DNA of 64,000 nucleotides from a bacterium (GTDB lineage: Bacteria > Patescibacteriota > Minisyncoccia > Phycocordibacterales > UBA9973), in NCBI GenBank assembly GCA_027484965.1, contig JAIXRY010000015.1, positions 91,807 through 155,806 of the forward strand. Reading direction: 5' to 3'. Below, piece after piece: positions 16,736 to 46,118 of this stretch (positions within the stretch are counted from its first letter, which is position 1; each line of letters opens with the position of its first letter). Made by a program: the position numbers and the translations under genes. The notes below the pieces were generated by a model, which saw only the letters and a program-made list of their open reading frames with translations, had not been told where the DNA came from and searched no databases.

Positions 16736-18970
16736 ATGAAAAAATATTCACCTATCATTACATTATGTCTTGCGCTTAGTTTGTTTGTTTTATTCCCAAA
16801 ACAAATACACGCATCATTTGATTTTACTGCTTCAGTATCTTCTGATATTGTTGAAAATGCCAAACCTGGAAATGATGGCACTAAATTAAACTTAAGATAT
16901 TCGGTAACAGCAGCTTCTGGAACAACTCAAACAAAGAGTATTAAAGTTTTCAAAAAAGACAATCCAACAGAAGTTGGTACTGTAAGTAATATTAGTACTA
17001 CTTATGTAAAACTTTACGATGAGGTTGGATGGGGTAGAAACGGCTCTCTGCCATATCATAACAAAGCGTTTTATGAACAAATAGGTACAAATCAGATTAC
17101 AAAAAGAAATTCTCTTTTTGTCTTGCTTTATAATGCTGTTCCAAAACAAGTTGATAAGCCAAATGAATTAATAAAAGGTACTCTTGTTTCTTGGCAAGAA
17201 ATACCTCTCAAAATAAATACTGTTTCAAATGATGGAAATATTGTTTTTGATTCTTTGATAAAAGATAAAAGTTACATTCCAGAAATTTTAGTCGTCAATA
17301 CTGGTTATGGTTCCAATTTAGTCGTCACTGGTAGTGCAATTAAAACAGGTAATACTGTAGGTGCTGGAAATACCTCAAGTGACGATCCTTTTGTGCAAGC
17401 TTCTATTAAGACTAAAGTGGTTTCTAATGTTACTCAATATAATATCTGTGTTGAGATAAATAAATACGCCAAAGCTGATAAGCCAATCAAAATAACAAAA
17501 GGAACTATTGTTGATGGAATTTTAGTCCCAAGCACTCCTTTGAGTGTTGTGAGTGTTACAGATCAAGTTCCAGAGACGCGTATTACTGATACTATGGCTC
17601 GTAGATTGCTTGACTGTACAGAACCTCAAGCGCTTCTTGCAAATACTTCATATGTCGCTGATTTTGATTTTTTAATTACAGATGACGATGCGTATGAACA
17701 AGATCCGGTAACAAGACCTTACTCAGTTCGTGTTTTAGTAAAGACTTATGCAAGTGGACTTGGAGCTGATATTAGTAGAGTGCCTTTATCTAATGGAAAT
17801 CCTGGTACAAATCAAACACCTTCAATCGGTAATTCTCCAAATCTAATTGCAACAAAATTAAGTAATGGTACACACAATGCTTGTGGTTATGTTGATCAAG
17901 CAGATAAGCTTTCAGATATAAACATATCTCTAACTATGGGGACACTAAGTCAGACAGGTAATGCAAGTCCTGTTATTACTCCTGATTATGATAATCGTAC
18001 AGTCACAAAAGCAAAAAGTGATATTAATGAGCAAATAAATCAAAGTACCAAGAGAGGTACTTACTGTACAAATTTTGGAGAACTACTTCCTGGAAACTAT
18101 GTCTTTAAAATGAGTACCATTTTTAATGGGCTTCCAAATATTACAGAATACAGAACTCTTTTTATTGGAGGGTTAAATCCTGGTAGAGTTCCTATGGTTG
18201 ACCCTGTAATTTCTGTTGTTTGGTCAAAAAAGAACAATGCATTTATTGTTACCGGAAAAATAACAAATCTTCCTCCTAATAATGGGGGTACAATAGTGCT
18301 TGTAAAAAAAGGTACTTTTCAAGAAATTAAGCCACTGCAAGCTGATATGGATGGATACTCTACTCCACAAAGAGAGTTTATTATTAGTGCGAAATTTAGA
18401 AATCTCGCCCCTGGTATCTATGTTGCTGTTGTGAGACCTTTACATTCAGATGCTACTCCATTTATTACACCTCAAGGTAGAATTGAGAGAGTTTCAGAAG
18501 AATTTGAAACCGAAAATATAAAAGCGATAAGTCCTGATGATACATTAGATCCGGGAACAGGTACAGGAACGGGAACTGGTTCCGGAACTGGTGGAGGTTT
18601 GTTTGATGATATTGGTGGAGATTTGCTTGAAATCCCAAAAAACGGACTTGTGTTGTGTGGAAGACCTGGTCAGCCTGCTTGTGATTTTAATATGTTGTTG
18701 ATAACTATAAATAAGGTTATTAATTTTGCACTTACGTTAATTGCTACTCCTATAATGCTCTATATGTTGTTTAAAACAGCATGGGAATTCTTTACAGCAG
18801 GAGGGAGTACAGATCAGATCAAGAGAGCAAAACAAAGACTACTCGCTATTGTTATTGGTTATGTGATTGCTCTTACTGCATGGCTTGTTATTAAGACAAT
18901 TATTATACTTCTGGTAGGTGAGGATAATATAACGGGAACTAACCCCATATTTAAGACATTCTTCAATTAA
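16736..18970 (+). CDS. large secreted protein with C-terminal VirB2/TrbC-like two-TM pilin module
   Basis: Signal peptide; about 640-aa extracellular region; Gly-Thr linker (GTGTGTGSGTGGG); C-terminal LLITINKVINFALTLIATPIMLYMLFKTAWEFF..GGSTDQIKRAKQ..LLAIVIGYVIALTAWLVIKTI has the same TM-loop-TM architecture as the four downstream small proteins. Confidence 0.5.
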   Translation: MKKYSPIITLCLALSLFVLFPKQIHASFDFTASVSSDIVENAKPGNDGTKLNLRYSVTAASGTTQTKSIKVFKKDNPTEVGTVSNISTTYVKLYDEVGWGRNGSLPYHNKAFYEQIGTNQITKRNSLFVLLYNAVPKQVDKPNELIKGTLVSWQEIPLKINTVSNDGNIVFDSLIKDKSYIPEILVVNTGYGSNLVVTGSAIKTGNTVGAGNTSSDDPFVQASIKTKVVSNVTQYNICVEINKYAKADKPIKITKGTIVDGILVPSTPLSVVSVTDQVPETRITDTMARRLLDCTEPQALLANTSYVADFDFLITDDDAYEQDPVTRPYSVRVLVKTYASGLGADISRVPLSNGNPGTNQTPSIGNSPNLIATKLSNGTHNACGYVDQADKLSDINISLTMGTLSQTGNASPVITPDYDNRTVTKAKSDINEQINQSTKRGTYCTNFGELLPGNYVFKMSTIFNGLPNITEYRTLFIGGLNPGRVPMVDPVISVVWSKKNNAFIVTGKITNLPPNNGGTIVLVKKGTFQEIKPLQADMDGYSTPQREFIISAKFRNLAPGIYVAVVRPLHSDATPFITPQGRIERVSEEFETENIKAISPDDTLDPGTGTGTGTGSGTGGGLFDDIGGDLLEIPKNGLVLCGRPGQPACDFNMLLITINKVINFALTLIATPIMLYMLFKTAWEFFTAGGSTDQIKRAKQRLLAIVIGYVIALTAWLVIKTIIILLVGEDNITGTNPIFKTFFN

Positions 18971-18988
18971 TAGGTTATAATTATTTAT

Positions 18989-19441
18989 ATGAAAAAGATA
19001 GTACCAACGTTTGGAATTTTAGGAATACTTTTTTTAGGAAGTATTTCACCTGTTTTTTTGTCTAACCAGAATCTTGTTCATGCTCAAGGAACATCGACAG
19101 GTACAACGACTGGGGGTGGGGGTGCGTCTACAGGGTCAGCATCTTCGAATACAAACAAATCATTCAACCTTTCTTTTACAATAGATAATCCTATTAAAGC
19201 AAACAACCTCCAAGAACTCATTGAAAGACTTTTAAAGCTTGTGTATCTTGTAGGTGTTCCAATACTTGTTTGTTTCTTGCTTTGGGCTGGGTTTCTATTT
19301 GTTGAAGCTCGCGGAAATGATAAGAAATTAGTTATTGCTCGTCAAAATTTATATAACGTCGTTATTGGGGCAGTTTTATTCCTCGGTGCATACACAATAG
19401 CAAAAGTTGTAATAGCAACATTAAAAGATATATTCAACTAA
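18989..19441 (+). CDS. pilin-like protein (TrbC/VirB2-like T4SS-pilin family resemblance)
   Basis: Signal peptide, Gly/Thr/Ser-rich linker, then two TM helices split by a short charged loop (WAGFLFVEARGNDKK). Confidence 0.5.
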   Translation: MKKIVPTFGILGILFLGSISPVFLSNQNLVHAQGTSTGTTTGGGGASTGSASSNTNKSFNLSFTIDNPIKANNLQELIERLLKLVYLVGVPILVCFLLWAGFLFVEARGNDKKLVIARQNLYNVVIGAVLFLGAYTIAKVVIATLKDIFN

Positions 19442-19445
19442 TAGT

Positions 19446-20264
19446 ATGAAAAATTTATTATACAAAATCATTGTTCCTTCATTACTTGTACTTGCTTTCA
19501 TAATCCCTATATTTCCCCAAAAAGCACAAGCTCTGACAGATCAAGAACAACAAGTAATTCTCCAGACAGCACTTTCTGCTATTATGATAGCTTTTCCGTA
19601 TATTTGTGGAGGTGCGTCTGTACCTACAGATACACCAGAGCAAGCGCAGCAACGTGAAAAAGTTAGACAAGCTTGTAGAAATACCGGGCAAATAAGTTCT
19701 CAAGTTATGTATATATTGATACAGTTATACCCTGAAGTATGTCAAAGAATGCCAAATGTTTGTTCTAGTATTATGCAAGTATTGGGTGCACTTGGTGGAA
19801 GTGGGGTTGTAGGTGGTTTTGGTGGTACAGGCCCTACAGTTATAGGAACTGGAGCGGGAGGAGCTATCTCTACTGGTCCAACTGCTGGTGGTGGTGGAGC
19901 TTTCGTTTCTACTGGCCCAACAGTTGCTAATATTACATACGCGTCCGGTCCTGCAAATGGAGGGTGCCCATCTGGTATATCTAATATTTCTGATATATAT
20001 CTACTCGCAAAATGTATTTTGGCTGGAATGGTTATTCCGATGATATTTATACTAGCATTCTTGGTATTTCTTTGGGGTGTGATGCAATTTATAAGAAAAG
20101 GAGACAATCAAGCAAAACGTCAAGAAGGTATTAATTTTATGTGGTACGGAATAGTTTCTCTTTTTGTAATGACTTCAGTGTGGGGAATTGTTAAGATTGC
20201 TACGACGACTCTCGGAGTAGATGGCACATATATACCAAAAGTAGAATCCCCAAAGAAAAACTAG
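19446..20264 (+). CDS. pilin-like protein (paralog)
   Basis: Same architecture; shared motifs FLWGVMQFIRKGDNQAKR and LFVMTSVWGIV. Confidence 0.5.
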   Translation: MKNLLYKIIVPSLLVLAFIIPIFPQKAQALTDQEQQVILQTALSAIMIAFPYICGGASVPTDTPEQAQQREKVRQACRNTGQISSQVMYILIQLYPEVCQRMPNVCSSIMQVLGALGGSGVVGGFGGTGPTVIGTGAGGAISTGPTAGGGGAFVSTGPTVANITYASGPANGGCPSGISNISDIYLLAKCILAGMVIPMIFILAFLVFLWGVMQFIRKGDNQAKRQEGINFMWYGIVSLFVMTSVWGIVKIATTTLGVDGTYIPKVESPKKN

Positions 20265-20356
20265 CACTTATATATATATATTTTGTATAATATGAAGAGT
20301 AGGCGCTGTCGTGTCTATGGACTATTAGTTTTTATTATTATTTATAATTTTTTATT

Positions 20357-20758
20357 ATGAAAAAGTTTATTCCTTTTGCAAGTGCACTTGCTCTTCCAGC
20401 TCTTGCTTTTGCACAAACTCGACCAGATTTTACTTATCTCGAATCTACATTTAATGCAGGTAAAGGTGTTTTAAGTGGTGCTATTAATGTGATAATGATT
20501 CTTGCATTCGTATATTTCCTTTGGACAGTTATTCAGTTTATTAGAGCAGAAGCTGGTAAAAAAGCAGATGCTCGTACAAATATGATTTATGCAATCATTG
20601 GTTTGTTTGTAATGACTTCTGTTTGGGGTATTGTTGGTATTCTTCGTCAAACAACTCAAGCAGGTCAAGGCGGTCAAGGTACTATTACTTGTCCTCCAGG
20701 AACTACTGCACAACAAGTAACTGGCGCTAATGGTCTTAGAACTGTTGTTTGTTACTAA
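20357..20758 (+). CDS. pilin-like protein (paralog)
   Basis: FLWTVIQFIRAEAGKKADAR and LFVMTSVWGIV motifs. Confidence 0.5.
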   Translation: MKKFIPFASALALPALAFAQTRPDFTYLESTFNAGKGVLSGAINVIMILAFVYFLWTVIQFIRAEAGKKADARTNMIYAIIGLFVMTSVWGIVGILRQTTQAGQGGQGTITCPPGTTAQQVTGANGLRTVVCY

Positions 20759-21087
20759 GTATGTTTTGGTTAATTCCTTTTACTCAAATAGCTCATGCAC
20801 AAGATGTGGGAGAAAAGTTGATTAATACTGTTTTAGACAAGATTATTAATCCACTAGTATTCTTCTTGTTCGTTGCAGCTCTTATATACTTTCTTTGGGG
20901 TGTCTTTATGTATCTCAAAGATGGTGATAAACAAGACGCTAGAACTACAGGTTCACGGCACATTCTTTGGGGGCTGGTGGGTTTGGTTATTATGATGAGT
21001 GTATACGGCATCATACGACTCGTTGTAAACACCTTCAACTTTCAAGCACCAAGTCGTACTGTAGACTTGAAGAGTATAGGGAAATAG
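20749..21087 (+). CDS. pilin-like protein (paralog)
   Basis: FLWGVFMYLKDGDKQDAR and VIMMSVYGII motifs. Confidence 0.5.
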   Translation: MLLSMFWLIPFTQIAHAQDVGEKLINTVLDKIINPLVFFLFVAALIYFLWGVFMYLKDGDKQDARTTGSRHILWGLVGLVIMMSVYGIIRLVVNTFNFQAPSRTVDLKSIGK

Positions 21088-22903: not shown

Positions 22904-22966
22904 TTTTTTGTCAATTTTGTTTTAATATATTATACACCTTTTATATAAAAAAGTCAAGGAGTTCTC

Positions 22967-23060
22967 GGATTTACTTTCTGGAAGCACACGTAAAATCGTG
23001 CTCGATTTTCTGCTCTGCTCGCGCCGTCGCGCTCCGCAAGGCTTCCAGAAAGTAATATCC
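22967..23060. other. structured intergenic element, candidate small ncRNA
   Basis: 19-20 bp closing stem ggatttactttctggaagc / gcttccagaaagtaatatcc enclosing inner hairpin cacg-taaaat-cgtg and a GC-rich core. Confidence 0.25.
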
Positions 23061-23285
23061 TCGCTCGATAGTTAGTACAAAAAACCTTAATAAATAAAGT
23101 TTTAGGGGAGAGGGAGGACTTGAAACTTACAGTTTCAGTACACCTTTTGGATATTTTATTTCACTCTGTTCATAAAAGTATCTCAAAAGCTTTTCAAGTC
23201 CTACTCCTGTTTTTAGAAAAAAAACAGTTGCGTCTCCCAAGCAAAAAGTCCCTAAAAGGGACTTTTTTGTGCTGACAGGACTTTC

Positions 23286-23420
23286 CGACTACGTCGGCAG
23301 GTACTTTTCAATCTCGTAAACTCGATAATGAAAAGTCTTTCAAGTCCTCACGAAAAGTGTGCAGACATTTTTCTTCCCGAGCACAAAATAAAAAGCCTCA
23401 AAAATGAGGCTTTTTATTTT
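23286..23420. repeat. tRNA-associated palindromic repeat unit (copy 1, downstream of tRNA-Leu-TAG)
   Basis: cgac-tac-gtcg hairpin, ggtacttttcaat, ataatgaaaagtctttcaagtcc motif, gcag-loop hairpin, and inverted copy of the tRNA T-arm/acceptor (ttcaagtcctc...ttcccgagcac). Confidence 0.5.
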
Positions 23421-23503
23421 GTGCTCGGGAGAGGACTTGAACCTCCATGGATCACTCCACCTGTTCCTAAGACAGGCGCGGCTACCAATTACGCCACCCG
23501 AGC
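23421..23503 (-). tRNA. tRNA-Leu (anticodon TAG)
   Basis: Minus-strand 83-nt cloverleaf read by eye: acceptor GCTCGGG/CCCGAGC, anticodon loop CTTAGGA, long variable arm, T-loop TTCAAGT. Confidence 0.8.
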
Positions 23504-23643
23504 ATTACAATATCAATAATGATTTTGTATAGAAATAGTACCATAAGATTTATATTTTTCAAAGTGAAAGATAATCATATAATATAGACACTTTTCCACA
23601 AAATTATCTTATTAATTTACTGTGTTTATGAGACAATATAAAT

Positions 23644-26600
23644 ATGTTAAATAATTTTAAATATTTTATAACCAGAAGCTATACACTTTTTGTGGTATCT
23701 ATCTTCATCTTCACATTTTCTATATTAAAAGTATCAGCTGTATACTATCCTACAGACAACATAACTAATCCTACATGTGCACCAGGTGCAGTAGGATGTT
23801 ATGTATCTTTACTTCCTGATCAGGTAGGTAATGCAGGTAAACTTTTAATTACTAACGGTACAAATCCTTCTTGGTCCAATACTATTGGAAATGATCTTAC
23901 TATAAATACTCTGACTGTTGGCTTAGGTGGTGGAAGTGTTTCTACTAACACAGCTGTTGGTGTTGAGACATTGTTTAGTAATACTACTGGAGGTGCTAAT
24001 ACTGCTAATGGTTTTAGATCTTTAAGAGAAAATACTACAGGTGATATGAATAGTGCTCTTGGATATAATTCACTTAGATATAATACAACCGGATCTGAAA
24101 ATGTTGCTTTTGGATATAATTCAATGTTTGCCAATACTTCAGGAGGTAAGAATTCAGCTTTTGGTAAAGAAACACTTTCTAGTAATACTACAGGTACTTA
24201 TAATACTGCAATAGGATATCAATCTCTCTTGTCTAATACATCAGGTGCATACAATGTTGCAATAGGTAATAATGCGCTTGATGCAAATACTACAGGTATA
24301 AGTAATATTGGATTTGGTCATAACGCTCTAGGAGTTAACACTTCCGGCTCATACAATATTGCTTCAGGTTGGAATACTTTATCTGCAAATACTACAGGTA
24401 GTCATAATATTGCTTTTGGTTCAGACACTCTAGGTTTAAATACTACAGGTATTCAAAATATTGCACTGGGACAACAGGCGCTAGTTAATAATTTGTCTGG
24501 TCAATATAATGTTTCAATAGGGACACAGTCACTTTTTAATAATACTACCGGTGGCAACAATCTAGCTTATGGGTACTATGCTGGTTACAATAGTCAGACA
24601 GGTTCAAATAATATTTTTATTGGAGCACAAACTGGTCTTGGTATAACAACAGGTTCAAACAACACAATCATTGGTGCTAATGTTACAGGACTCTCTTCAT
24701 CTCTTTCAAATAATATTATTATTGCAGACGGTGCAGGGAATCAAAGAATTAATATAGATAGTAATGGTAATGCAGAAATAGGTGGAAATATTTATTCTGC
24801 TGGTTTGAAGTGGAGTACAACAGCCCCTGTAGCTGACAGGCAATGGGTTGATGTAGGTTATGGAAATGGACTCTTTGTTGCTGTAGCTCAAGGTTCTGGA
24901 ACAGACAGAATTATGACATCTCCTGATGGTGTAAACTGGACATTGAGAACTCACTCTACTTCATCATTAAAATCAATCACTTATGGTAATGGAATATTCG
25001 TAGCGGCTGGTCATTCTGGTACCCGTTTTTTAACCTCTACAGATGGAATAACTTGGACAGCCCGTACTGGTACAGGACAATCGTTTTATGTAACTTACGG
25101 TAATGGTCTTTTTGTTGCTTCAAAAATAGATAATGCTGGGCTTAGAATTATAACATCTCCAGATGGAATAACTTGGACAGATAGAGTAACTCCTGTAGGA
25201 GCTGATAAACCTTGGGTTGGAATAACTTACGGTAATGGTCTTTTTGTTACTGTGGCTGAGACGAATGGAACACAGTCTATTATGACATCTCCAGATGGTA
25301 TAAACTGGACACTACAGACACACCCATCTGTTTCTTCTGGTGGATTTGAAAACGTTGCTTATGGTGATGGTAAATTTGTAGCTGTCGGTATTGGTGGTTT
25401 AGTTATGACATCTCCAGACGGAGTAAACTGGACACAACAGTCTTTCCCAAATGCAGCCCTTCTTTATCGAATAACTTATGCTGAGGGCATGTTTGTTACA
25501 GCTGGAGCTTTCTCTACAACAAACAACAATATTTATACTTCACCTGATGGTATAACTTGGACAACAAGAGTTGTTCCTAAAAATGATTGGGCTGGAGTTG
25601 CTTATGGTAATGGACGTTTTGTAATGGTTGCCTTTTCTGGAACTCTCGGTAGTCGTGTTGCATACTCTGGTAAAATGTCTACACTAGACACTTTAACAGC
25701 AAATATATTCCACGGTAATCATTTCTTTACTGCTAACATCGGCATCGGCACAACCTCTCCCTTCGGCAAACTCGACGTTGCAGGCTCATCATCAAGTACA
25801 GACTTAGTAGCATTCGACACAAACAGAAGTATCTCTGTAATCAACACAAACACTACAACAAACAACGCACAAGGTATAGCACTCCGTTCATATGGTACAG
25901 ACGGAACAACTATCCAATCAGGTGTAAAACTCCTTGCAGTTAACACAGCAAGAACAGCTACAACAATAACTTCTGATCTTGCAATCCTTACCAACAATGC
26001 TGGTACGATAAGTGAGAAGATGCGTATTCTTGCAAATGGAAAAGTAAATATTGGAACGGGTAATGTTTATAATACTGATTCAAATACTCTTCTGAATGTT
26101 TATGGTAATATGGGGGTTGTTAGAGCTAATAATCCTGCCTCTGTTTTTGTAGGAAGAACTCAATCAGGAGGACTTCCTACAGCTAGTGCTACATTAGGTA
26201 GTCTCGGAGCTGCGCTTTTTGATGGGACAAATTGGGTGGCTGGTGGTAATAGATTTGCTTTCTTTGCTGCAGAAAACTGGACAAATAGTGCGCAAGGCAC
26301 TTGGATGAGATATGCAAGTGTTCCAGTGGGTTCGAATGCATCTGTTAATATTTTAGAAATAACACCTTCAGGACAATTTAATTTTGGTACAAGCACTCTC
26401 TATCCAGCTCTCACAGAAACATCTCGATTGATGGTTAATGGTCTAGGTTCAACATCATCTACATTTACAGCTCAATTTCATAATTCAACAGGAACTTCAA
26501 ATTCTTTAGTTGTTCGTGATGATGGTAGAGTAGGTATAGGAAACAACGCTCCATCACACACCCTCCACGTCGGCTCAGGCTCTGTAGTCGGCATCGTCTC

Positions 26601-27264
26601 CCGCTTCCAAAACAGTACCGGAACCTGTGACATCAACCCAACAACAACATCACTCTCATGTAGTTCAGATATCAACCTCAAGAAGAACATCACAACTCTA
26701 AAAGATAATCAACCTTTCGTACTAAACTCTCAAACTCCAGATACAAATGTCCTTAAGAATCTAAACAAACTAACACCAGTTATCTACAACTGGACTACAG
26801 AACAAGACACAGCTACAAAACAAACAGGATTCATCGCACAAGACGTAGAACAAATCTTCCCATCTCTTGTATCTACAGACCCTACAACAAACCTCAAGTC
26901 TCTTAACTACATAGGTCTCATCCCATATGCTATAGAAGGTATTAAAGAGTTAGATATCAAGGTTAATCAGTTGAGTTCTTTGGATGATACAGTTGAAGGA
27001 ACATTTGCTTCATTGATAAAATCATATTTATCTAATGCTACAAATCGTATAACTCGTATATTTACAGGAGAAGTTTGTTTGACTGATAGTGATGGAAGTT
27101 CTGAATGTTTGAACAAACAAGAACTACACCAGTTGAAGCAATTGCTTAATAATCAAGGAGTATCAAATAATACTAGTAATCCTGTAGTAGAAGAAGAAGT
27201 TGTAATTCCTGATGAGCCTGCAATTACACCTGAAAATCCTGTAATAGAAGAAGTAATTGAATAA
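23644..27264 (+). CDS. giant tail-fibre-like surface protein with C-terminal peptidase S74 intramolecular-chaperone domain
   Basis: 1206 aa. N-terminal signal anchor; about 20 repeats of a 14-15 aa N-x-A-x-G unit, Hep_Hag/tail-fibre-like; eight V-x-YGNGLFVAV...IMTSPDG(V/I)NWT Asp-box-like propeller repeats; C-terminal SSDINLKKNI...TGFIAQDVEQIFPSLV...LNYIGLIPYAIEGIKELDIKVNQL matches the auto-cleaving chaperone domain of phage endosialidase/tail fibres. Confidence 0.6.
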   Translation: MLNNFKYFITRSYTLFVVSIFIFTFSILKVSAVYYPTDNITNPTCAPGAVGCYVSLLPDQVGNAGKLLITNGTNPSWSNTIGNDLTINTLTVGLGGGSVSTNTAVGVETLFSNTTGGANTANGFRSLRENTTGDMNSALGYNSLRYNTTGSENVAFGYNSMFANTSGGKNSAFGKETLSSNTTGTYNTAIGYQSLLSNTSGAYNVAIGNNALDANTTGISNIGFGHNALGVNTSGSYNIASGWNTLSANTTGSHNIAFGSDTLGLNTTGIQNIALGQQALVNNLSGQYNVSIGTQSLFNNTTGGNNLAYGYYAGYNSQTGSNNIFIGAQTGLGITTGSNNTIIGANVTGLSSSLSNNIIIADGAGNQRINIDSNGNAEIGGNIYSAGLKWSTTAPVADRQWVDVGYGNGLFVAVAQGSGTDRIMTSPDGVNWTLRTHSTSSLKSITYGNGIFVAAGHSGTRFLTSTDGITWTARTGTGQSFYVTYGNGLFVASKIDNAGLRIITSPDGITWTDRVTPVGADKPWVGITYGNGLFVTVAETNGTQSIMTSPDGINWTLQTHPSVSSGGFENVAYGDGKFVAVGIGGLVMTSPDGVNWTQQSFPNAALLYRITYAEGMFVTAGAFSTTNNNIYTSPDGITWTTRVVPKNDWAGVAYGNGRFVMVAFSGTLGSRVAYSGKMSTLDTLTANIFHGNHFFTANIGIGTTSPFGKLDVAGSSSSTDLVAFDTNRSISVINTNTTTNNAQGIALRSYGTDGTTIQSGVKLLAVNTARTATTITSDLAILTNNAGTISEKMRILANGKVNIGTGNVYNTDSNTLLNVYGNMGVVRANNPASVFVGRTQSGGLPTASATLGSLGAALFDGTNWVAGGNRFAFFAAENWTNSAQGTWMRYASVPVGSNASVNILEITPSGQFNFGTSTLYPALTETSRLMVNGLGSTSSTFTAQFHNSTGTSNSLVVRDDGRVGIGNNAPSHTLHVGSGSVVGIVSRFQNSTGTCDINPTTTSLSCSSDINLKKNITTLKDNQPFVLNSQTPDTNVLKNLNKLTPVIYNWTTEQDTATKQTGFIAQDVEQIFPSLVSTDPTTNLKSLNYIGLIPYAIEGIKELDIKVNQLSSLDDTVEGTFASLIKSYLSNATNRITRIFTGEVCLTDSDGSSECLNKQELHQLKQLLNNQGVSNNTSNPVVEEEVVIPDEPAITPENPVIEEVIE

Positions 27265-27329
27265 TATAAATTAAGTCTCAGTAGGGATCTTTCGTTACAC
27301 GAACAGTAGACCTTTTGCATTTATTTAAA

Positions 27330-27445
27330 TCATAGATTTTCATAAATAAGCAAAAGCTTTTCGATCCCTACACGCATATGAAGCAGTTCATATGCTTGAG
27401 GGGACAAAAAAACAAAAACACCAATTTGGTGTTTTTGTTTTTTTG
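27330..27445. repeat. tRNA-associated palindromic repeat unit (copy 2, downstream of tRNA-Lys)
   Basis: aaaagcttttcgatccctac + gcatatgaa-gcag-ttcatatgc hairpin + ttgaggggac(a)n ... tgtcccctca long palindrome ending inside the tRNA acceptor. Confidence 0.5.
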
Positions 27446-27518
27446 TCCCCTCAGTAGGGATCGAACCTACGACATTCTCCTTAAGAGGGAGCTACTCTAC
27501 CAGCTGAGTTATGAGGGG
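27446..27518 (-). tRNA. tRNA-Lys (anticodon CTT)
   Basis: Minus strand; acceptor CCCCTCA/TGAGGGG (unusual C1-G72), D-loop AGCTGGTA, anticodon loop CTCTTAA, T-loop TTCGATC. Confidence 0.7.
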
Positions 27519-27628
27519 TCTTATATTATATTTTAAAACTTACTTTTACCCCACAATTCTTTTGTTGAAGCCACTACAGCTGAGTTATGAGGGGATTATA
27601 TTAAAAAAAATATGAAGGGGTCTCGCCT

Positions 27629-27727
27629 TAATGAAAAGTCTTTTGAAGCCCATCAAGGCAATAAGCTGGGCACCTGTGGACGGTCTTGGGCACAAAGTAA
27701 ATAAACCTAGAAGGTTTATTTACTTTG
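27629..27727. repeat. tRNA-associated palindromic repeat unit (copy 3, downstream of tRNA-Leu-TAA)
   Basis: aatgaaaagtcttttgaagccc motif then gcacaaagtaaataaacc-taga-aggtttatttactttgtgc hairpin running into the tRNA 3' end. Confidence 0.5.
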
Positions 27728-27809
27728 TGCCCAGAGTGGGGGTCGAACCCACATCCCTTGCGAGACACGATTTTAAGTCGTGCGCGTATACCAATTCCGC
27801 CATCCGGGC
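27728..27809 (-). tRNA. tRNA-Leu (anticodon TAA)
   Basis: Minus strand; acceptor GCCCGGA/TCTGGGC, anticodon loop CTTAAAA, long variable arm, T-loop TTCGACC. Confidence 0.8.
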
Positions 27810-27871
27810 AAATTATTTATTTTTAAATTATAGCATAAAATTCAGGGACAGGAATTAAATGGCGGGAATCT

Positions 27872-28002
27872 CGACTTACAGTCGCGGGTACTTTTCAATT
27901 TTTTACTTCATAAAAAATAATGAAAAGTCTTTCGATTCCCGCACGCAAGCAAAGCAGTTTGCTTGCTCCACGTCTCAAGAAAACCCCTAATGGGTTTTCT
28001 TG
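27872..28002. repeat. tRNA-associated palindromic repeat unit (copy 4, downstream of tRNA-Cys)
   Basis: cgact-tac-agtcg hairpin, ggtacttttcaat, ataatgaaaagtctttcgattcccgc, gcaagcaaa-gcag-tttgcttgc hairpin, ccacgtctcaagaaaacccc-taat-ggggttttcttgagacgtgg. Confidence 0.5.
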
Positions 28003-28074
28003 AGACGTGGGCGGGAATCGAACCCGCGCATGGCGGTTTTGCAGACCGCAGCGTTACCACTTCGCCACCACGTC
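28003..28074 (-). tRNA. tRNA-Cys (anticodon GCA)
   Basis: Minus strand; acceptor GACGTGG/CCACGTC, discriminator U, anticodon loop CTGCAAA, T-loop TTCGATT. Confidence 0.8.
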
Positions 28075-28107
28075 AATATTATATGTTCAATATATAATAT
28101 ATCTTAT

Positions 28108-36779: not shown

Positions 36780-37640
36780 TTATTTTTTTATTATTTCCCC
36801 AAACTCTTCTTTAATCAAACCTTTTATCTCCATTAAGGACAAAAGTATAGAAGCTTTACTTGTTTCCATACCCAATTTGCTTATAAGAATATCTTTTGAT
36901 AAAGGTTCTTTTATTATCTCTAAAACTAATTTTTCTTCTGTATTTAAATTTATATTTTCTTGTTCATTTTGTTGATTATCTTTTTCAAATCCTAGTGCTT
37001 CAAGTAAGTCATCTGGCGAGGTGATAGGAGTTGCTCCAAGCCTAAGGAATTGGTTTGTACCTTTTGAATTATCAGAAAATATTGGTCCAGGTACTACTAG
37101 AACATCACGATTGTACTCTACAGCAAGACGGGCTGTGATAAGTGTTCCTGATTTTTCTTCCGCTTCTACTATGAGAATTGCTTTGCATAATCCAGCCATT
37201 ATTCTATTTCTTCTTGGGAAGCTCCAAAGAGTCGCTCGCATACTTGGCTCGAATTCAGAAAGTAAACATCCTCCTTTTTGAAGTATTTCTTCTGCAAGAC
37301 GAAAATTTGTTGCTGGATACAAGACATTTTTATCGAGTCCTGATCCTGGAATTGCAAGCGTAAGAATATTGTTCTCTATTGCGCGTTTATGTGCCAAACT
37401 ATCGATACCGAGCGCAAGTCCAGACACTATTACTACAGGATACCCTTTGAGTGAATCTACGAGTTTTTCTAAAACATCTTTTCCATATGATGTATATTTG
37501 CGTGAACCAACAATTCCTAAATAAATAAATTCTTCCGGATCTGGTATTTTCCCACGAATAAAAAGTTTCTTTGGTGGTTCTGGAATTTCTAAAAGACAAG
37601 GAGGGAATTCGGAGGGATCTAGTTTATAGATGTCTTCCAT
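36780..37640 (-). CDS. dprA: DNA processing protein DprA (Smf)
   Basis: Rossmann-like core GIVGSRKYTSYG ... AEEKSGTLITARLAVEYNRDVLVVPG. Confidence 0.8.
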   Translation of the reverse strand: MEDIYKLDPSEFPPCLLEIPEPPKKLFIRGKIPDPEEFIYLGIVGSRKYTSYGKDVLEKLVDSLKGYPVVIVSGLALGIDSLAHKRAIENNILTLAIPGSGLDKNVLYPATNFRLAEEILQKGGCLLSEFEPSMRATLWSFPRRNRIMAGLCKAILIVEAEEKSGTLITARLAVEYNRDVLVVPGPIFSDNSKGTNQFLRLGATPITSPDDLLEALGFEKDNQQNEQENINLNTEEKLVLEIIKEPLSKDILISKLGMETSKASILLSLMEIKGLIKEEFGEIIKK

Positions 37641-45770: not shown

Positions 45771-45841
45771 TGGGGAATCGTCTAATGGTAGGACTTCGGA
45801 TTTTGGTTCCGACTATCTAGGTTCGAGTCCTAGTTCCCCAG
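45771..45841 (+). tRNA. tRNA-Gln (anticodon TTG)
   Basis: U1-A72 acceptor TGGGGAA/TTCCCCA, D-loop TAATGGTAG, anticodon stem TCGGA/TCCGA with loop TTTTGGT, T-arm CTAGG-TTCGAGT-CCTAG. Confidence 0.75.
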
Positions 45842-45866
45842 CTATATACGGAAGAATTAAGAAATA

Positions 45867-45961
45867 GGGGATTTTGGTTCCGTTTATCTAGGCGCCTATT
45901 TTTAAAGAACTGAGTGATTATAAAAATAGTGCGTTTCGAAGAGGCGAGTCCTAGTTCCCCA
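45867..45961 (+). pseudogene. tRNA-Gln 3'-fragment copy interrupted by a ~50-nt palindromic insertion
   Basis: ggggattttggttccgtttatctagg + [cgc-ctattttta...tataaaaatag-tgcg tttcgaagag] + gcgagtcctagttcccca mirrors the anticodon-to-3' part of the adjacent tRNA-Gln but lacks the 5' half. Confidence 0.35.
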
Positions 45962-46118
45962 ACCAATAAGAGTTAGAACAAATACGTCTAGTCGATTGAT
46001 AGATAAAAGCTTTCCACAAAATAGGTATTTATTTGTATTACGCACCGGGATATAATGTAACTTATATGAAAAAGTGTTTTATAATAGATAAATTAACGAT
46101 TACATTTGCACTCCTCTC

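What the first reader, a model, noticed from the sequence alone, without database searches (positions are those of the whole stretch)
23283..28080. tRNA genes embedded in long palindromes made from inverted copies of their own 3' arms, with a conserved spacer motif
All four minus-strand tRNAs (Leu-TAG, Lys-CTT, Leu-TAA, Cys-GCA) share one downstream architecture. A 20-27 bp perfect hairpin uses the acceptor 3' strand as one arm (for example gtcccc...ggggac, cacgtctcaaga...tcttgagacgtg). An inverted copy of the T-arm follows (ttcgatccctac, ttcgattcccgc, ttcaagtcctc), interrupted by a small hairpin with a conserved GCAG loop. A shared motif ATAATGAAAAGTCTTTCRA follows; in two copies it is preceded by a further palindrome plus GGTACTTTTCAAT. 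The first hairpins may simply be intrinsic terminators. The extended, conserved, multi-part structure is unusual. It could instead be a miniature palindromic element that targets tRNA 3' ends, or a processing or regulatory RNA.
Basis: seen in the sequence. Interest (0 to 1): 0.6.

Follow-up and report, generated by a model that had tools for sequence, protein, structure and literature searches.

The report
Palindromic repeat modules behind tRNA genes
Behind most tRNA genes of this tiny (Patescibacteria/CPR) bacterium sits a roughly 140-base hairpin-rich DNA module that carries a forward and a backward copy of that tRNA's own last 20 bases around a conserved core; it appears to be an undescribed, fast-turning-over repeat family specific to tRNA and tmRNA gene ends, not a known RNA gene.

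Summary
All four minus-strand tRNAs are followed by perfect 19-28-nt-arm palindromes that include the acceptor 3' strand. A, B and D also have an inverted T-loop/T-stem copy, a 9-bp GCAG-loop hairpin and a conserved motif; C is degenerate. Two older modules lie outside the given coordinates (about 22960-23267). Each unit is: antisense copy of the tRNA 3' end, hairpin P2, conserved hairpin P3, sense T-loop/T-stem copy, hairpin P4, sense acceptor copy, bidirectional terminator, tRNA. The same architecture recurs in more than 140 Patescibacteria loci. It is always convergent with a tRNA (104) or tmRNA (4) 3' end, across 33 or more anticodons, often in tandem arrays. Rfam has no match. The stems covary but lack the G-U over A-C bias that tRNA stems in the same loci show. 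Presence and module type differ between genomes with 94-96% identical IF-2. Identical 55-nt cores sit at different tRNAs with locally matching arms. No recombinase lies in cis. Best reading (about 0.5): a DNA-level, non-autonomous repeat family targeting the T-loop-to-3'-end segment of tRNA/tmRNA genes, with arms made by target duplication and template switching. A tRNA-like RNA role is not excluded.

The parts
22960..23075 (+). Module A3: degenerate, oldest module of the tRNA-Leu-TAG array (type-2 remnant). It has the signature CTCGCGCCGTCGCGCTCCG at 23018 and the palindrome 22971-22985 / 23041-23055.
   Evidence: the same signature occurs in type-2 modules of L143, L129, L096
23082..23104 (.). 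Decayed terminator hairpin (term0, AAAACCTTA..TAAAGTTTT), distal to the array. It is orthologous to an intact hairpin in L257.
23105..23243 (+). Module A2 (type 3). In order: antisense arm AGGACTTGAAA 23115-23125; P2 GAAACTTACAGTTTC 23122-23136; P3 about 23140-23191 (CAGTACACCTTTTGG..CTCAAAAGC); sense T-loop/T-stem copy TTTCAAGTCCT 23192-23202; a P4-like hairpin 23207-23228; acceptor copy TCTCCCAAGCA 23233-23243.
   Evidence: (I3, 11 nt, 100%). Its sense arm plus terminator is orthologous to the real tRNA-Leu-TAG 3' end in L253.
23243..23267 (.). Terminator hairpin 1 (AAAAAGTCCCT aaa AGGGACTTTTT) between modules A2 and A.
   Evidence: I5; the same hairpin follows the inverted tRNA-Leu-TAG in L253/L254
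23269..23374 (+). Module A (type 1). In order: antisense arm remnants GTGCT 23269-23273 and AGGACTT 23278-23284; P2 CCGACTACGTCGG 23285-23297; GGTAC 23300; P3 23303-23336; sense T-loop/T-stem copy TTCAAGTCCTC 23339-23349; P4 (GCAG loop) 23352-23373.
   Evidence: I2, I4
23375..23430 (.). 26-nt-arm perfect palindrome. It consists of the sense acceptor copy, a bidirectional terminator, and the acceptor strand of tRNA-Leu-TAG.
   Evidence: I1
23421..23503 (-). tRNA-Leu(TAG)
27277..27396 (+). Module B (type-3-like). In order: antisense arm CTCAGTAGGGATC 27277-27289; P2 27291-27303; P3 27312-27356 (CTTTTGC..GCAAAAG); sense T-loop/T-stem copy TTCGATCCCTAC 27360-27371; P4 GCATATGAA-GCAG-TTCATATGC 27374-27395.
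   Evidence: (I6, I8, I18); the ortholog in L253 shows compensatory changes
27397..27453 (.). 28-nt-arm perfect palindrome: sense acceptor copy, terminator, and the tRNA-Lys acceptor strand.
   Evidence: I1
27445..27518 (-). tRNA-Lys(CTT)
27573..27686 (+). Module C (degenerate and chimeric). It contains a partial duplicate of the tRNA-Lys 5' end; the P3 3' half TTAATGAAAAGTCTTTT 27628-27644; a decayed T-arm copy; and the type-4 signature GGCAATAAGCTGGGCACCTGTGGACGG at 27657.
   Evidence: (I5); the ortholog in L249 has different deletions
27687..27733 (.). 22-nt-arm perfect palindrome: sense acceptor copy, terminator, and the tRNA-Leu(TAA) acceptor strand.
   Evidence: I2
27727..27809 (-). tRNA-Leu(TAA)
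27862..27967 (+). Module D (type 1). In order: antisense arm GCGGGAATC 27862-27870; P2 CGACTTACAGTCG 27872-27884; GGTAC 27887; P3 27890-27928; sense T-loop/T-stem copy TTCGATTCCCGC 27931-27942; P4 GCAAGCAAA-GCAG-TTTGCTTGC 27945-27966.
   Evidence: (I7, I11, I19, I20)
27968..28010 (.). 19-nt-arm perfect palindrome: sense acceptor copy, terminator, and the tRNA-Cys acceptor strand.
   Evidence: I4
28002..28074 (-). tRNA-Cys(GCA)

Best explanation
These are DNA-level modular palindromic repeats: a non-autonomous, mobile or recombining repeat family of Patescibacteria that lodges at the 3' end of tRNA and tmRNA genes.

A fresh module has the following order, read on the strand opposite to the tRNA:
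- an antisense copy of the tRNA from about C56/G57 of the T-loop to its 3' end
- hairpin P2 (4-6 bp, YTAC loop)
- hairpin P3, with an invariant base GGTACTTTTC-N / N'-GAAAAGTC
- a sense copy of the T-loop and the T-stem 3' strand
- hairpin P4 (9 bp, GCAG loop)
- a sense copy of the acceptor 3' strand and discriminator
- an A-tract / GC-hairpin / T-tract bidirectional terminator
- the tRNA gene itself

The 'long palindromes' are therefore ordinary terminators whose stems are lengthened by the sense acceptor copy.

Shown:
- the anatomy
- the exclusive convergent association with tRNA/tmRNA ends
- tandem arrays in which distal modules are decayed
- gain, loss and replacement between near-identical genomes
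- identical P2-P3 cores at different tRNAs, with arms that match each local tRNA
- covarying stems with no strand-specific wobble

Inferred:
- The roughly 55-60-nt P2-P3 core is the unit that spreads.
- It is inserted by a trans-acting enzyme that recognises the T-loop region of tRNA-like genes.
- The direct repeat of the tRNA's last roughly 19 nt is a target or att-type duplication that keeps the tRNA intact.
- The reverse-complement copies, and the near-perfect and jointly changing stems, are made and maintained by replication template switching at hairpins.
For: (1) Association with tRNA/tmRNA ends. Of 147 pattern-defined units, 104 are convergent with a tRNA 3' end, 4 with a tmRNA 3' end and 0 are co-oriented. 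The median distance is 76 nt and 33 anticodons are represented.

(2) The arms are copies of the neighbouring tRNA. The T-loop + T-stem 12-mer is identical in 44 of 83 units and 11/12 in 19 more. The antisense arm most often covers 19 nt, ending at ...ATTCG. An exact 16-mer direct repeat lies 90-150 nt downstream of 43 tRNAs.

(3) Turnover between close relatives.
- Nucleotide homology between the window and L249 stops at the tRNA-Cys 3' end.
- L249 (IF-2 94% identical) lacks unit B; L253 (IF-2 96%) has it.
- The tRNA-Cys unit differs in type between these genomes.
- L250 has no units at 3 of 3 tRNAs.

(4) Tandem arrays of different module types, with the distal modules decayed: L143, L096, L129, L163, L061, L062, and A/A2/A3 in the window.

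(5) The core is shared across tRNAs. Of 60 core pairs at least 88% identical, 49 lie at different tRNAs (for example 100% between a Ser-TGA and a Ser-GGA locus, 98% between Gly-GCC and Gln-TTG), each with different arms and different P4.

(6) The structure is real. Covariation score is 0.377 against 0.159 in shuffles (0 of 500 shuffles as high) and 0.06-0.11 in slid controls.

(7) There is no RNA-type wobble bias. G-U versus A-C counts are P4 6:3, P3 inner 13:20, P2 8:4, P5 48:42. tRNA stems in the same loci give 68:1.

(8) Not a known RNA: no Rfam family matches.

(9) Cargo can sit between units. An R-M cassette is flanked by two tRNA-Ser-type units in L248.

(10) Precedents from the literature.
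- tRNA/tmRNA genes are integration targets that accumulate partial tRNA repeats, with newer insertions nearest the tRNA (10.1101/2020.12.28.424599).
- A casposase target comprises the T-psi-C-loop part of a tRNA gene plus a 15-bp duplicated segment (PMC5137440).
- Template switching creates and repairs perfect stems in a single event (PMC8794818, PMC7202029).
Against: - No integrase, transposase or HUH gene was found next to 80 units, next to the orphan units, or in the 64-kb window. One orphan is beside an unrelated IS3 transposase.
- No free, viral or plasmid copy was found: the 8 hits of the one viral-contig scan lie next to no tRNA and none fits the full unit pattern.
- The mechanism that makes the inverted target copy is conjecture.
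- The invariant P3 base, the precise junctions and the fixed orientation could equally reflect a host function.
- Orthologous unit B shows compensatory changes in P1 and P4. These could reflect selection on a transcript rather than template switching.
- The wobble test also shows no bias for the terminator stem P5, which is certainly transcribed. Its power on these AT-rich, near-perfect stems is therefore limited.
- The tRNA-Lys filled versus empty comparison (window versus L249) does not show the displaced original terminator that a simple T-loop insertion predicts.
Confidence: 0.5

Rival explanations
1. A functional structured RNA. On the tRNA-sense strand each unit has tRNA-like topology: acceptor 5' strand, P4 in place of the D/anticodon body, T-stem, an expanded T-loop (P3, P2), T-stem, acceptor 3' strand, discriminator. 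It would mimic its neighbour and act as a processing signal or decoy for RNase P, RNase Z or the CCA-adding enzyme on read-through transcripts, like plant-mitochondrial t-elements. Alternatively, on the opposite strand, it would be a convergent small RNA ending in the shared terminator.
For: - Very strong predicted structure.
- Covariation in P1, P2 and P4 and at the P3 36/55 pair.
- Invariant P3 base sequence across Paceibacteria and a Saccharibacteria MAG.
- Compensatory changes between orthologous copies of unit B.
- Fixed position and orientation relative to the tRNA.
- Some units follow the tRNA with no terminator in between: L013, L018, L136, L160, L169.
Against: - No G-U over A-C bias on either strand, whereas tRNA stems in the same loci give 68:1.
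- No consistent promoter.
- A terminator usually separates the tRNA from the unit.
- Units are absent from close relatives and from whole loci (L250), differ in type at orthologous tRNAs, and are often decayed, as unit C is. They are therefore dispensable.
- No Rfam family matches.
- In either orientation the T-loop is paired or interrupted, so the tRNA mimicry is poor.
Confidence: 0.2
2. A passive by-product without mobility. Convergent (palindromic) duplications of tRNA gene ends around bidirectional terminators arise by replication template switching and then decay. The units would be relics of such inverted tRNA copies, and the conserved core would be an old sequence spread only by homologous recombination between strains.
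For: - In L253/L254 the real tRNA-Leu-TAG lies in the opposite orientation. Its 3' end plus terminator is orthologous to the sense arm plus terminator 1 of window module A2.
- A tRNA-Gln pseudo-copy lies downstream of tRNA-Gln, and there is a partial tRNA-Lys 5' duplicate.
- DprA is present, so uptake and homologous recombination are plausible.
- Template switching is known to create perfect reverse-complement repeats (PMC8794818).
Against: - A decayed tRNA body cannot explain a 55-nt core that is identical at different tRNA species and shared between genomes.
- It cannot explain the precise core/T-loop junction in more than 140 units.
- It does not explain the existence of several discrete module types that recur across genomes.
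Confidence: 0.15
3. Scars (attL/attR remnants) left by classical integrase-bearing islands or prophages that integrate into tRNA/tmRNA genes, as with tycheposons. P2-P3-P4 would be conserved arm-type protein-binding sites of one family of integrative elements.
For: - Direct repeats of the tRNA 3' end starting in the T-loop.
- tmRNA is also targeted.
- Arrays have the older copies distal to the tRNA.
- One cargo-bearing case exists, L248.
- The behaviour of tRNA-targeting elements is described in 10.1101/2020.12.28.424599.
Against: - The interval between direct repeats is about 100-150 nt in 43 of 44 cases, with no genes in between.
- No integrase is present in the flanks.
- The same core is used with 33 or more different tRNA cores, whereas integrases are tRNA-specific.
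- Classical att scars have no inverted copy of the target and no P4.
Confidence: 0.1
4. Nothing special: just unusually long intrinsic terminators plus chance similarity.
For: The inner hairpins have the A-tract / stem / T-tract form of bidirectional terminators.
Against: - The multi-part architecture recurs in more than 140 loci with arms tracking 33 or more tRNAs.
- Fold z-scores are -12.7 and -14.5.
- Relatives without units have terminators that stop before the acceptor.
Confidence: 0.03

Closest known systems
tRNA/tmRNA-targeting integrative elements and their partial-tRNA repeat arrays (e.g. tycheposons; T-loop class of integrase sites, Williams 2002 as cited in 10.1101/2020.12.28.424599)
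   Same: - The target set is tRNA and tmRNA gene 3' parts.
- There is a direct repeat of the tRNA 3' segment from the T-loop to the end, and the tRNA stays intact.
- Successive insertions stack, with the newest next to the tRNA and older ones decaying.
- Content varies strongly between close strains.
   Different: - The interval is about 140 nt with no integrase or cargo (one R-M exception).
- One conserved core is associated with 33 or more different tRNAs.
- There is an extra inverted copy of the target, interrupted by a hairpin.
- The whole unit is a set of covarying hairpins.
Casposon / Cas1-type integration next to a tRNA gene (PMC5137440)
   Same: - The recognition region includes the T-psi-C-loop part of a tRNA gene.
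- An adjacent segment of about 15-20 bp is duplicated on insertion.
- The logic is polar: a 'leader' (the tRNA) followed by a repeat.
   Different: - Casposons are elements of several kb with conserved terminal inverted repeats, a Cas1 gene and a PolB-like polymerase gene.
- No Cas1 or conserved TIR was found here.
- Here the duplicated segment lies inside the tRNA (56 to 3' end), not mostly downstream of it.
MITEs and REP/BIME-type extragenic palindromes (own knowledge of these families)
   Same: - Small, non-coding, hairpin-forming and multi-copy.
- Intergenic, at gene 3' ends.
- Occur in clusters.
- No transposase in cis.
- Can double as terminators.
   Different: - The inverted arms are copies of the local target, not conserved element ends.
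- They occur only at tRNA/tmRNA 3' ends.
- The short motifs are not over-represented elsewhere in the window.
Folded single-strand recombination sites (integron attC, CTX-phage attP) and IS200/IS605-type hairpin ends (own knowledge)
   Same: - Function would depend on hairpins formed by one DNA strand.
- Sequence is variable while structure is conserved.
- The folded arms rebuild a double-stranded copy of the target sequence, as CTX attP mimics dif.
   Different: - No IntI, Xer or TnpA link is shown.
- attC has no target copy.
- IS200/IS605 elements make no duplication.
- All of this rests on analogy only.
tRNA-like processing elements (plant mitochondrial t-elements, mascRNA, tmRNA tRNA-like domain; own knowledge)
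   Same: Acceptor-stem plus T-stem mimicry next to genuine tRNA genes.
   Different: - The T-loop is disrupted.
- There is no RNA-type wobble pattern.
- The units are dispensable between strains.
- No Rfam hit to tRNA, tmRNA or mascRNA covers the units.

Membership tests
Intrinsic (bidirectional) terminator | GC-containing stem-loop flanked by an A-tract upstream and a T-tract downstream, immediately after the gene | tested here: inconclusive
   Direct reading shows the feature: A has AAAAAGCCTCA-aaaa-TGAGGCTTTTT, D has GAAAACCC-ctaat-GGGTTTTC, and B and C are similar. The consensus scan called none of them. I think this is because it extends the stem through the whole palindrome, so no T-run follows the stem; this cause was not tested.
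Intrinsic (bidirectional) terminator | The stem does not need sequence from the mature RNA | tested here: not met
   The perfect arms include 8-10 nt of the acceptor strand plus the discriminator. Unit-free relatives have terminators that stop before the acceptor.
MITE | Small, non-coding, multi-copy, without its own transposase | tested here: met
   Units are about 140 nt. More than 140 copies were found in sampled loci. No transposase lies in the flanks.
MITE | Terminal inverted repeats conserved among copies | tested here: not met
   The inverted arms equal the neighbouring tRNA's 3' end and differ from locus to locus.
MITE | Short target-site duplication flanking the element | tested here: inconclusive
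   A direct repeat of about 19 nt of the tRNA 3' end flanks the unit. Whether it is a duplication made at insertion cannot be shown from sequence alone.
REP/BIME with RAYT transposase | Palindromes of 20-40 nt dispersed genome-wide in intergenic regions, with a conserved 5' tetranucleotide and an associated RAYT gene | tested here: not met
   Units occur only at tRNA/tmRNA ends. The motifs are not over-represented in the window. No Y1/HUH gene was seen among the window ORFs that were scanned. A whole-genome search was not possible.
Integrase att duplication at tRNA genes (genomic islands, tycheposons) | Direct partial-tRNA repeats bounding the inserted DNA, with the tRNA restored | tested here: met
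Integrase att duplication at tRNA genes (genomic islands, tycheposons) | An integrase gene and cargo between the repeats, with integrase specific for one tRNA | tested here: not met
   Repeat spacing is 58-232 nt in all but one case. No integrase was found. The same core occurs at 33 or more anticodons.
Casposon | Cas1 casposase, PolB-like polymerase and conserved TIRs | tested here: not met
   None appeared among the flanking ORFs or the scanned window ORFs.
Any Rfam RNA family (tRNA-like, tmRNA, riboswitch, ribozyme, sRNA) | Covariance-model score at or above the family's gathering threshold | tested here: not met
   Only the five tRNAs pass. At E<=5, only sub-threshold hits (chiefly miRNA-precursor models, plus scattered leader/sRNA models) overlap the units.
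Structured functional RNA (generic) | Covariation with G-U tolerated on the transcribed strand only | tested here: not met
   Covariation is present. G-U versus A-C counts are 6:3, 13:20, 8:4 and 48:42, against 68:1 in tRNA stems.
IS200/IS605-derived palindrome-associated elements | Subterminal hairpins recognised by a Y1 TnpA; insertion 3' of a fixed tetra- or pentanucleotide; no duplication | not testable with these tools
   Hairpins P2 and P4 and a fixed junction in the T-loop are compatible. A duplication is present, however, and no TnpA was found. This would need a genome-wide protein census and biochemistry.

The most novel reading that the evidence does not exclude
A new kind of site-specific DNA insertion system that recognises the universal T-arm/T-loop of tRNA-like genes, possibly as a DNA hairpin. 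It would insert a roughly 55-nt two-hairpin core while duplicating the tRNA's last roughly 20 nt in both orientations, so that a single element family can colonise every tRNA and the tmRNA gene without inactivating them. The folded module rebuilds a double-stranded copy of its own target. It would be driven by a still unidentified trans-acting enzyme of Patescibacteria.
Probability: 0.2. Interest if true: 0.85.

Novelty: new variant of a known kind. Interest (0 to 1): 0.68.

Why it matters
tRNA gene ends are the classical landing pads for mobile DNA, yet no small, enzyme-less repeat family has been described that occupies them and copies each target in both orientations.

Practical consequences in Patescibacteria:
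- At least 29% of tRNAs not used to select the sampled loci carry a copy of their own 3' end downstream, and 4 of 5 tRNAs in this window carry a unit.
- Gene callers place spurious ORFs over the units, for example the 145-aa 'gene' in L255.
- The units mark hotspots where strain-specific genes enter: the S74 fibre gene here, and an R-M cassette in L248.

If the units are mobile, the family points to an unknown recombinase with T-loop specificity and a target-copying mechanism. If they are RNA, it would be a new tRNA-linked processing signal in organisms with minimal RNA-processing machinery. Either way it is a clean, testable system, because hundreds of natural variants exist.

Tried and rejected
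- Rfam at gathering and at permissive thresholds: only tRNAs plus sub-threshold noise, mostly miRNA-precursor hairpin models.
- Viral-contig scan with the P3 pattern: 8 chance hits, none next to a tRNA and none fitting the full pattern.
- Primer-binding-site idea (antisense arm as the complement of the mature tRNA including CCA): the CCA complement is not consistently present.
- Promoter inside P3 (TTTTCA..ATAAT): the spacing varies by 10-40 nt, so this was rejected.
- Small ORF starting at the ATG of AATGAAAAG: the ATG is not conserved (ACG, CTG and AGG variants occur).
- DNA uptake signal: the motifs are not over-represented in the window.
- Cis-encoded recombinase: the nearest distal ORFs of 80 units gave 86 Pfam families in total; the 25 with most members (at most 3 each, top one MiaA) are unrelated housekeeping functions and include no integrase or transposase. 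Orphan flanks gave one unrelated IS3 transposase. The window ORFs are housekeeping genes.
- Group I intron relation (PMC13011429 describes introns in Patescibacteria tRNA anticodon loops): the units are downstream of intact tRNAs and too small.
- A simple 'gain in the window lineage' reading for unit B was dropped once L253 (IF-2 96%) proved to carry the ortholog.
- The ungapped hairpin counter gives unreliable wobble counts for the whole of P3, because of its internal loop. Only the P3 inner-stem count was used.
- Literature searches found no description of this element.

Full report
**Context.** The window is a 34.5% G+C bacterial chromosome segment. It carries DnaE, GyrA, a short 496-aa IF-2, RbfA, ClpB, TopA, PBPs, aminoacyl-tRNA synthetases, DprA and a cluster of T4SS-pilin genes. 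Some of the best IF-2 homologs carry source names, and those are Candidatus Paceibacterota or Parcubacteria MAGs. The organism is therefore a member of the Patescibacteria (CPR). ARAGORN and Rfam agree on five tRNAs: four on the minus strand inside the finding, plus tRNA-Gln at 45771-45842 on the plus strand.

**Checking the observation.**
- Perfect palindromes reach into the acceptor 3' strand at all four minus-strand tRNAs, with arms of 26, 28, 22 and 19 nt at 100% complementarity.
- In units A, B and D an 11-12-nt perfect inverted copy of the T-loop plus T-stem 3' strand lies 63-82 nt away.
- Next to that copy sits a 9-bp hairpin with a GCAG loop.
- ATAATGAAAAGTCTTTC is exact in A and D and has 2 mismatches in C. 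B has ATAAGCAAAAGCTTTTC. GGTACTTTTCAAT is exact in A and D.
- On their own these short AT-rich motifs are not significant in 64 kb. The composite is: as single strands, units D and B fold with z = -12.7 and -14.5.
- Unit C is a decayed chimera.

**Anatomy.** Folding and alignment give one plan, read on the plus strand, which is opposite to the tRNA:
1. An antisense copy of the tRNA 3' end (for example GCGGGAATC in D).
2. P2, a 4-6-bp hairpin with a YTAC loop.
4. This pairs with the antisense arm to form helix P1.
5. P4, the GCAG-loop hairpin, inserted exactly between the T-stem and acceptor copies.
6. A sense copy of the acceptor 3' strand and discriminator.
7. An A-tract / GC-hairpin / T-tract terminator.
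8. The tRNA itself.

The long palindromes are thus bidirectional terminators whose stems are lengthened by item 6. Unit B has the same plan with compensated P3 sequences (CTTTTGC/GCAAAAG).

One is complete, of the B type (A2, 23105-23243, with its own terminator 23243-23267). Beyond it is a remnant of a third type (about 22960-23075).

- Every genome hit that fits the full pattern is from Paceibacteria, Parcubacteria or Nomurabacteria MAGs, plus one MAG labelled Saccharibacteria.
- Of 147 units, 104 are convergent with a tRNA 3' end, 4 with a tmRNA 3' end, and none is co-oriented. The median gap is 76 nt and 33 anticodons are represented.
- The remaining 39 are at contig ends, next to an intron-interrupted tRNA, or 'orphans' followed by a truncated acceptor copy. 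One orphan is cut off by an IS3 insertion. Another bounds an R-M cassette whose other side is a second unit plus tRNA-Ser.
- The T-loop/T-stem 12-mer equals the neighbouring tRNA in 44 of 83 cases and is 11/12 in 19 more.
- The antisense arm typically covers the tRNA from C56/G57 to 1-2 nt past the called 3' end (modal length 19 nt). In tRNA sense it is therefore a direct repeat of the tRNA's end. An exact 16-mer repeat lies 58-232 nt downstream of 43 tRNAs.
- Among tRNAs that were not used to select the loci, 26 of 89 still carry such copies. The figure is 0 of 13 in loci from other phyla.
- Tandem arrays of two or three modules, often of different P3 types, occur in L143, L096, L129, L163, L061 and L062. 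The distal modules have lost P4, the acceptor copy and the terminator.

**Is it an RNA?** The helices are real. On 39 length-matched units the covariation score is 0.377, against 0.159 in shuffles (0 of 500 as high) and 0.06-0.11 for slid partners. Double changes occur in P1, P2 and P4 and at the P3 pair 36/55.

The stems do not behave like RNA stems, however. G-U versus A-C counts on the unit strand are 6:3 (P4), 13:20 (P3 inner), 8:4 (P2) and 48:42 (P5). The acceptor and T stems of tRNAs in the same loci give 68 G-U to 1 A-C. P4 is Watson-Crick in 816 of 825 pairs despite dozens of different stem sequences.

No Rfam family matches, even at E<=5, and no promoter-like site recurs at a fixed place. 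One caveat applies: the terminator stem, which is certainly transcribed, shows no bias either, so the test is suggestive rather than decisive.

**Evolutionary behaviour.** Three close relatives were recovered through IF-2 and the neighbouring ORF: L249 (IF-2 94% identical), L253 (96%) and L257. Two more distant ones are L250 (68%) and L251 (65%).
- Synteny is conserved, but nucleotide homology between the window and L249 ends at the 3' end of tRNA-Cys.
- L249 has no unit at tRNA-Lys, and there the terminator stops before the acceptor.
- L253 has the ortholog of unit B at 90% identity. It shows paired changes in P1 (GGG/CCC to GAG/CTC) and in P4 (G-C to A-T), plus several single G-to-A changes.
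- At tRNA-Cys the window has a plain type-1 module. L249 and L253 instead carry a roughly 47-nt nested module and a rearranged 3' part.
- L251 has other module types, and L250 has none at three tRNAs.
- In L253/L254 tRNA-Leu-TAG is inverted relative to the window and L257. Its genuine 3' end plus terminator is orthologous to the sense arm plus terminator 1 of window module A2.
- The 3.6-kb S74-domain gene between tRNA-Leu-TAG and unit B is absent from L253.

Most telling, 49 of 60 pairs of P2-P3 cores that are at least 88% identical lie at different tRNAs. Examples are 100% between a Ser-TGA and a Ser-GGA locus, 98% between Gly-GCC and Gln-TTG, and 97% between Glu and Gly. In each pair the arms match the local tRNA and the P4 stems differ.

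No integrase or transposase is enriched among the nearest genes of 80 units, and none is present in the scanned ORFs of the 64-kb window.

**Interpretation.** The data fit a DNA-level repeat family best. Its roughly 55-nt two-hairpin core spreads, or is homogenised, among tRNA-like gene ends. Its tRNA-specific parts are produced locally.

The direct repeat from the T-loop to the tRNA end is what site-specific insertion into tRNA genes leaves behind. New insertions next to the tRNA push older ones outward, as described for tRNA-targeting islands (10.1101/2020.12.28.424599). A Cas1-type integrase is known whose minimal target is the T-psi-C-loop segment of a tRNA gene plus an adjacent 15-bp segment that becomes duplicated (PMC5137440).

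Three features are what replication template switching at hairpins produces: the reverse-complement copies, the near-perfect stems, and the multi-base 'compensatory' differences without wobble intermediates (PMC8794818, PMC7202029).

These mechanistic steps are inferred, not shown. The enzyme is unknown, and no free form of the element was found. The window-versus-L249 comparison at tRNA-Lys does not show the displaced original terminator that a simple T-loop insertion predicts.

I put this explanation at about 0.5. The rivals are:
- a functional tRNA-like RNA, about 0.2
- passive decay of convergent tRNA-end duplications, about 0.15
- scars of classical integrase-bearing elements, about 0.1
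- plain terminators, about 0.03 (effectively excluded)

**Comparison with known systems.** The modules work like a cross between tRNA-gene att duplications and small extragenic palindromes. They fail defining tests of each family: no conserved terminal repeats (MITE), no genome-wide dispersal or RAYT (REP), no integrase or cargo (islands), no Cas1 or TIRs (casposons), and no covariance-model match (Rfam). My literature searches found no description of them. The one relevant Patescibacteria tRNA paper concerns group I introns in anticodon loops (PMC13011429).

I therefore class the finding as a new variant of a known kind, namely target-specific palindromic repeat DNA. There is a real chance (about 0.2) that it represents a new T-loop-directed, target-copying insertion system.

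Noticed in passing
window 45868-45965: Directly downstream of tRNA-Gln (45771-45842, + strand) lies a same-strand pseudo-copy of its 3' two-thirds. A hairpin-bearing insertion of about 52 nt sits exactly in the T-loop (CTAGG|...|CGAGTCCTAG). This is a different arrangement from the four convergent units, but it involves the same T-loop position.
   Followed up: partly
window 23644-27264: A 1206-aa repeat protein with a C-terminal Peptidase_S74 (endosialidase chaperone) domain lies between tRNA-Leu-TAG and unit B. The gene is absent from the relative L253 (IF-2 96% identical), so it is a strain-variable insertion in this tRNA cluster.
   Followed up: partly
L253 9771-9853 and L254 100-182, versus window 23421-23503: tRNA-Leu-TAG and about 60 nt of its 5' flank are inverted in L253/L254 relative to the window and L257. 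The terminator AAAAAGTCCCT..AGGGACTTTTT stays in place in both arrangements.
   Followed up: partly
window 27573-27610: A partial duplicate of the tRNA-Lys 5' end and its upstream flank (..CAGCTGAGTTATGAGGGGATTATATTAAAAAAA) is embedded in degenerate unit C.
   Followed up: no
L248 2300-5245: A type II restriction-modification cassette (MvaI/BcnI-family endonuclease plus an N4/N6 methyltransferase) and an unknown 243-aa ORF are flanked by two units with tRNA-Ser arms. No integrase lies in between.
   Followed up: partly
L250 3389-3865; L018 2990-3679: Free-standing homing-endonuclease-type genes (HNH; LAGLIDADG) sit between or next to the orthologous tRNA genes in relatives.
   Followed up: no
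L131 / L144 (unit at L131 400-442): A unit is followed by a tRNA-like 3' end (GCTCCGGCGGCAGGATTCGAACCTGC...) that ARAGORN does not call. It is probably an intron-interrupted tRNA of the kind described in PMC13011429.
   Followed up: no
L255 2284-2721: A 145-aa 'gene' called in the public record overlaps a near-identical copy of window unit A, in a stretch that ARAGORN was not run on, so no tRNA was confirmed there. It may be a spurious ORF call over the unit.
   Followed up: no
window 16736-21087 and 36780-37640: A cluster of T4SS-pilin-domain genes and a DprA gene are present. Both are compatible with DNA uptake and recombination as a route for exchange of the tRNA-flank modules.
   Followed up: no
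many units, e.g. L084 838-952, L160 62-163: One common P2 variant (CGCCCTACGGTCG) keeps a conserved C.T mismatch in mid-stem. Many P3 apices carry a conserved sequence that does not form a hairpin (CTCGCTTCGCTCG). Neither feature is explained.
   Followed up: no
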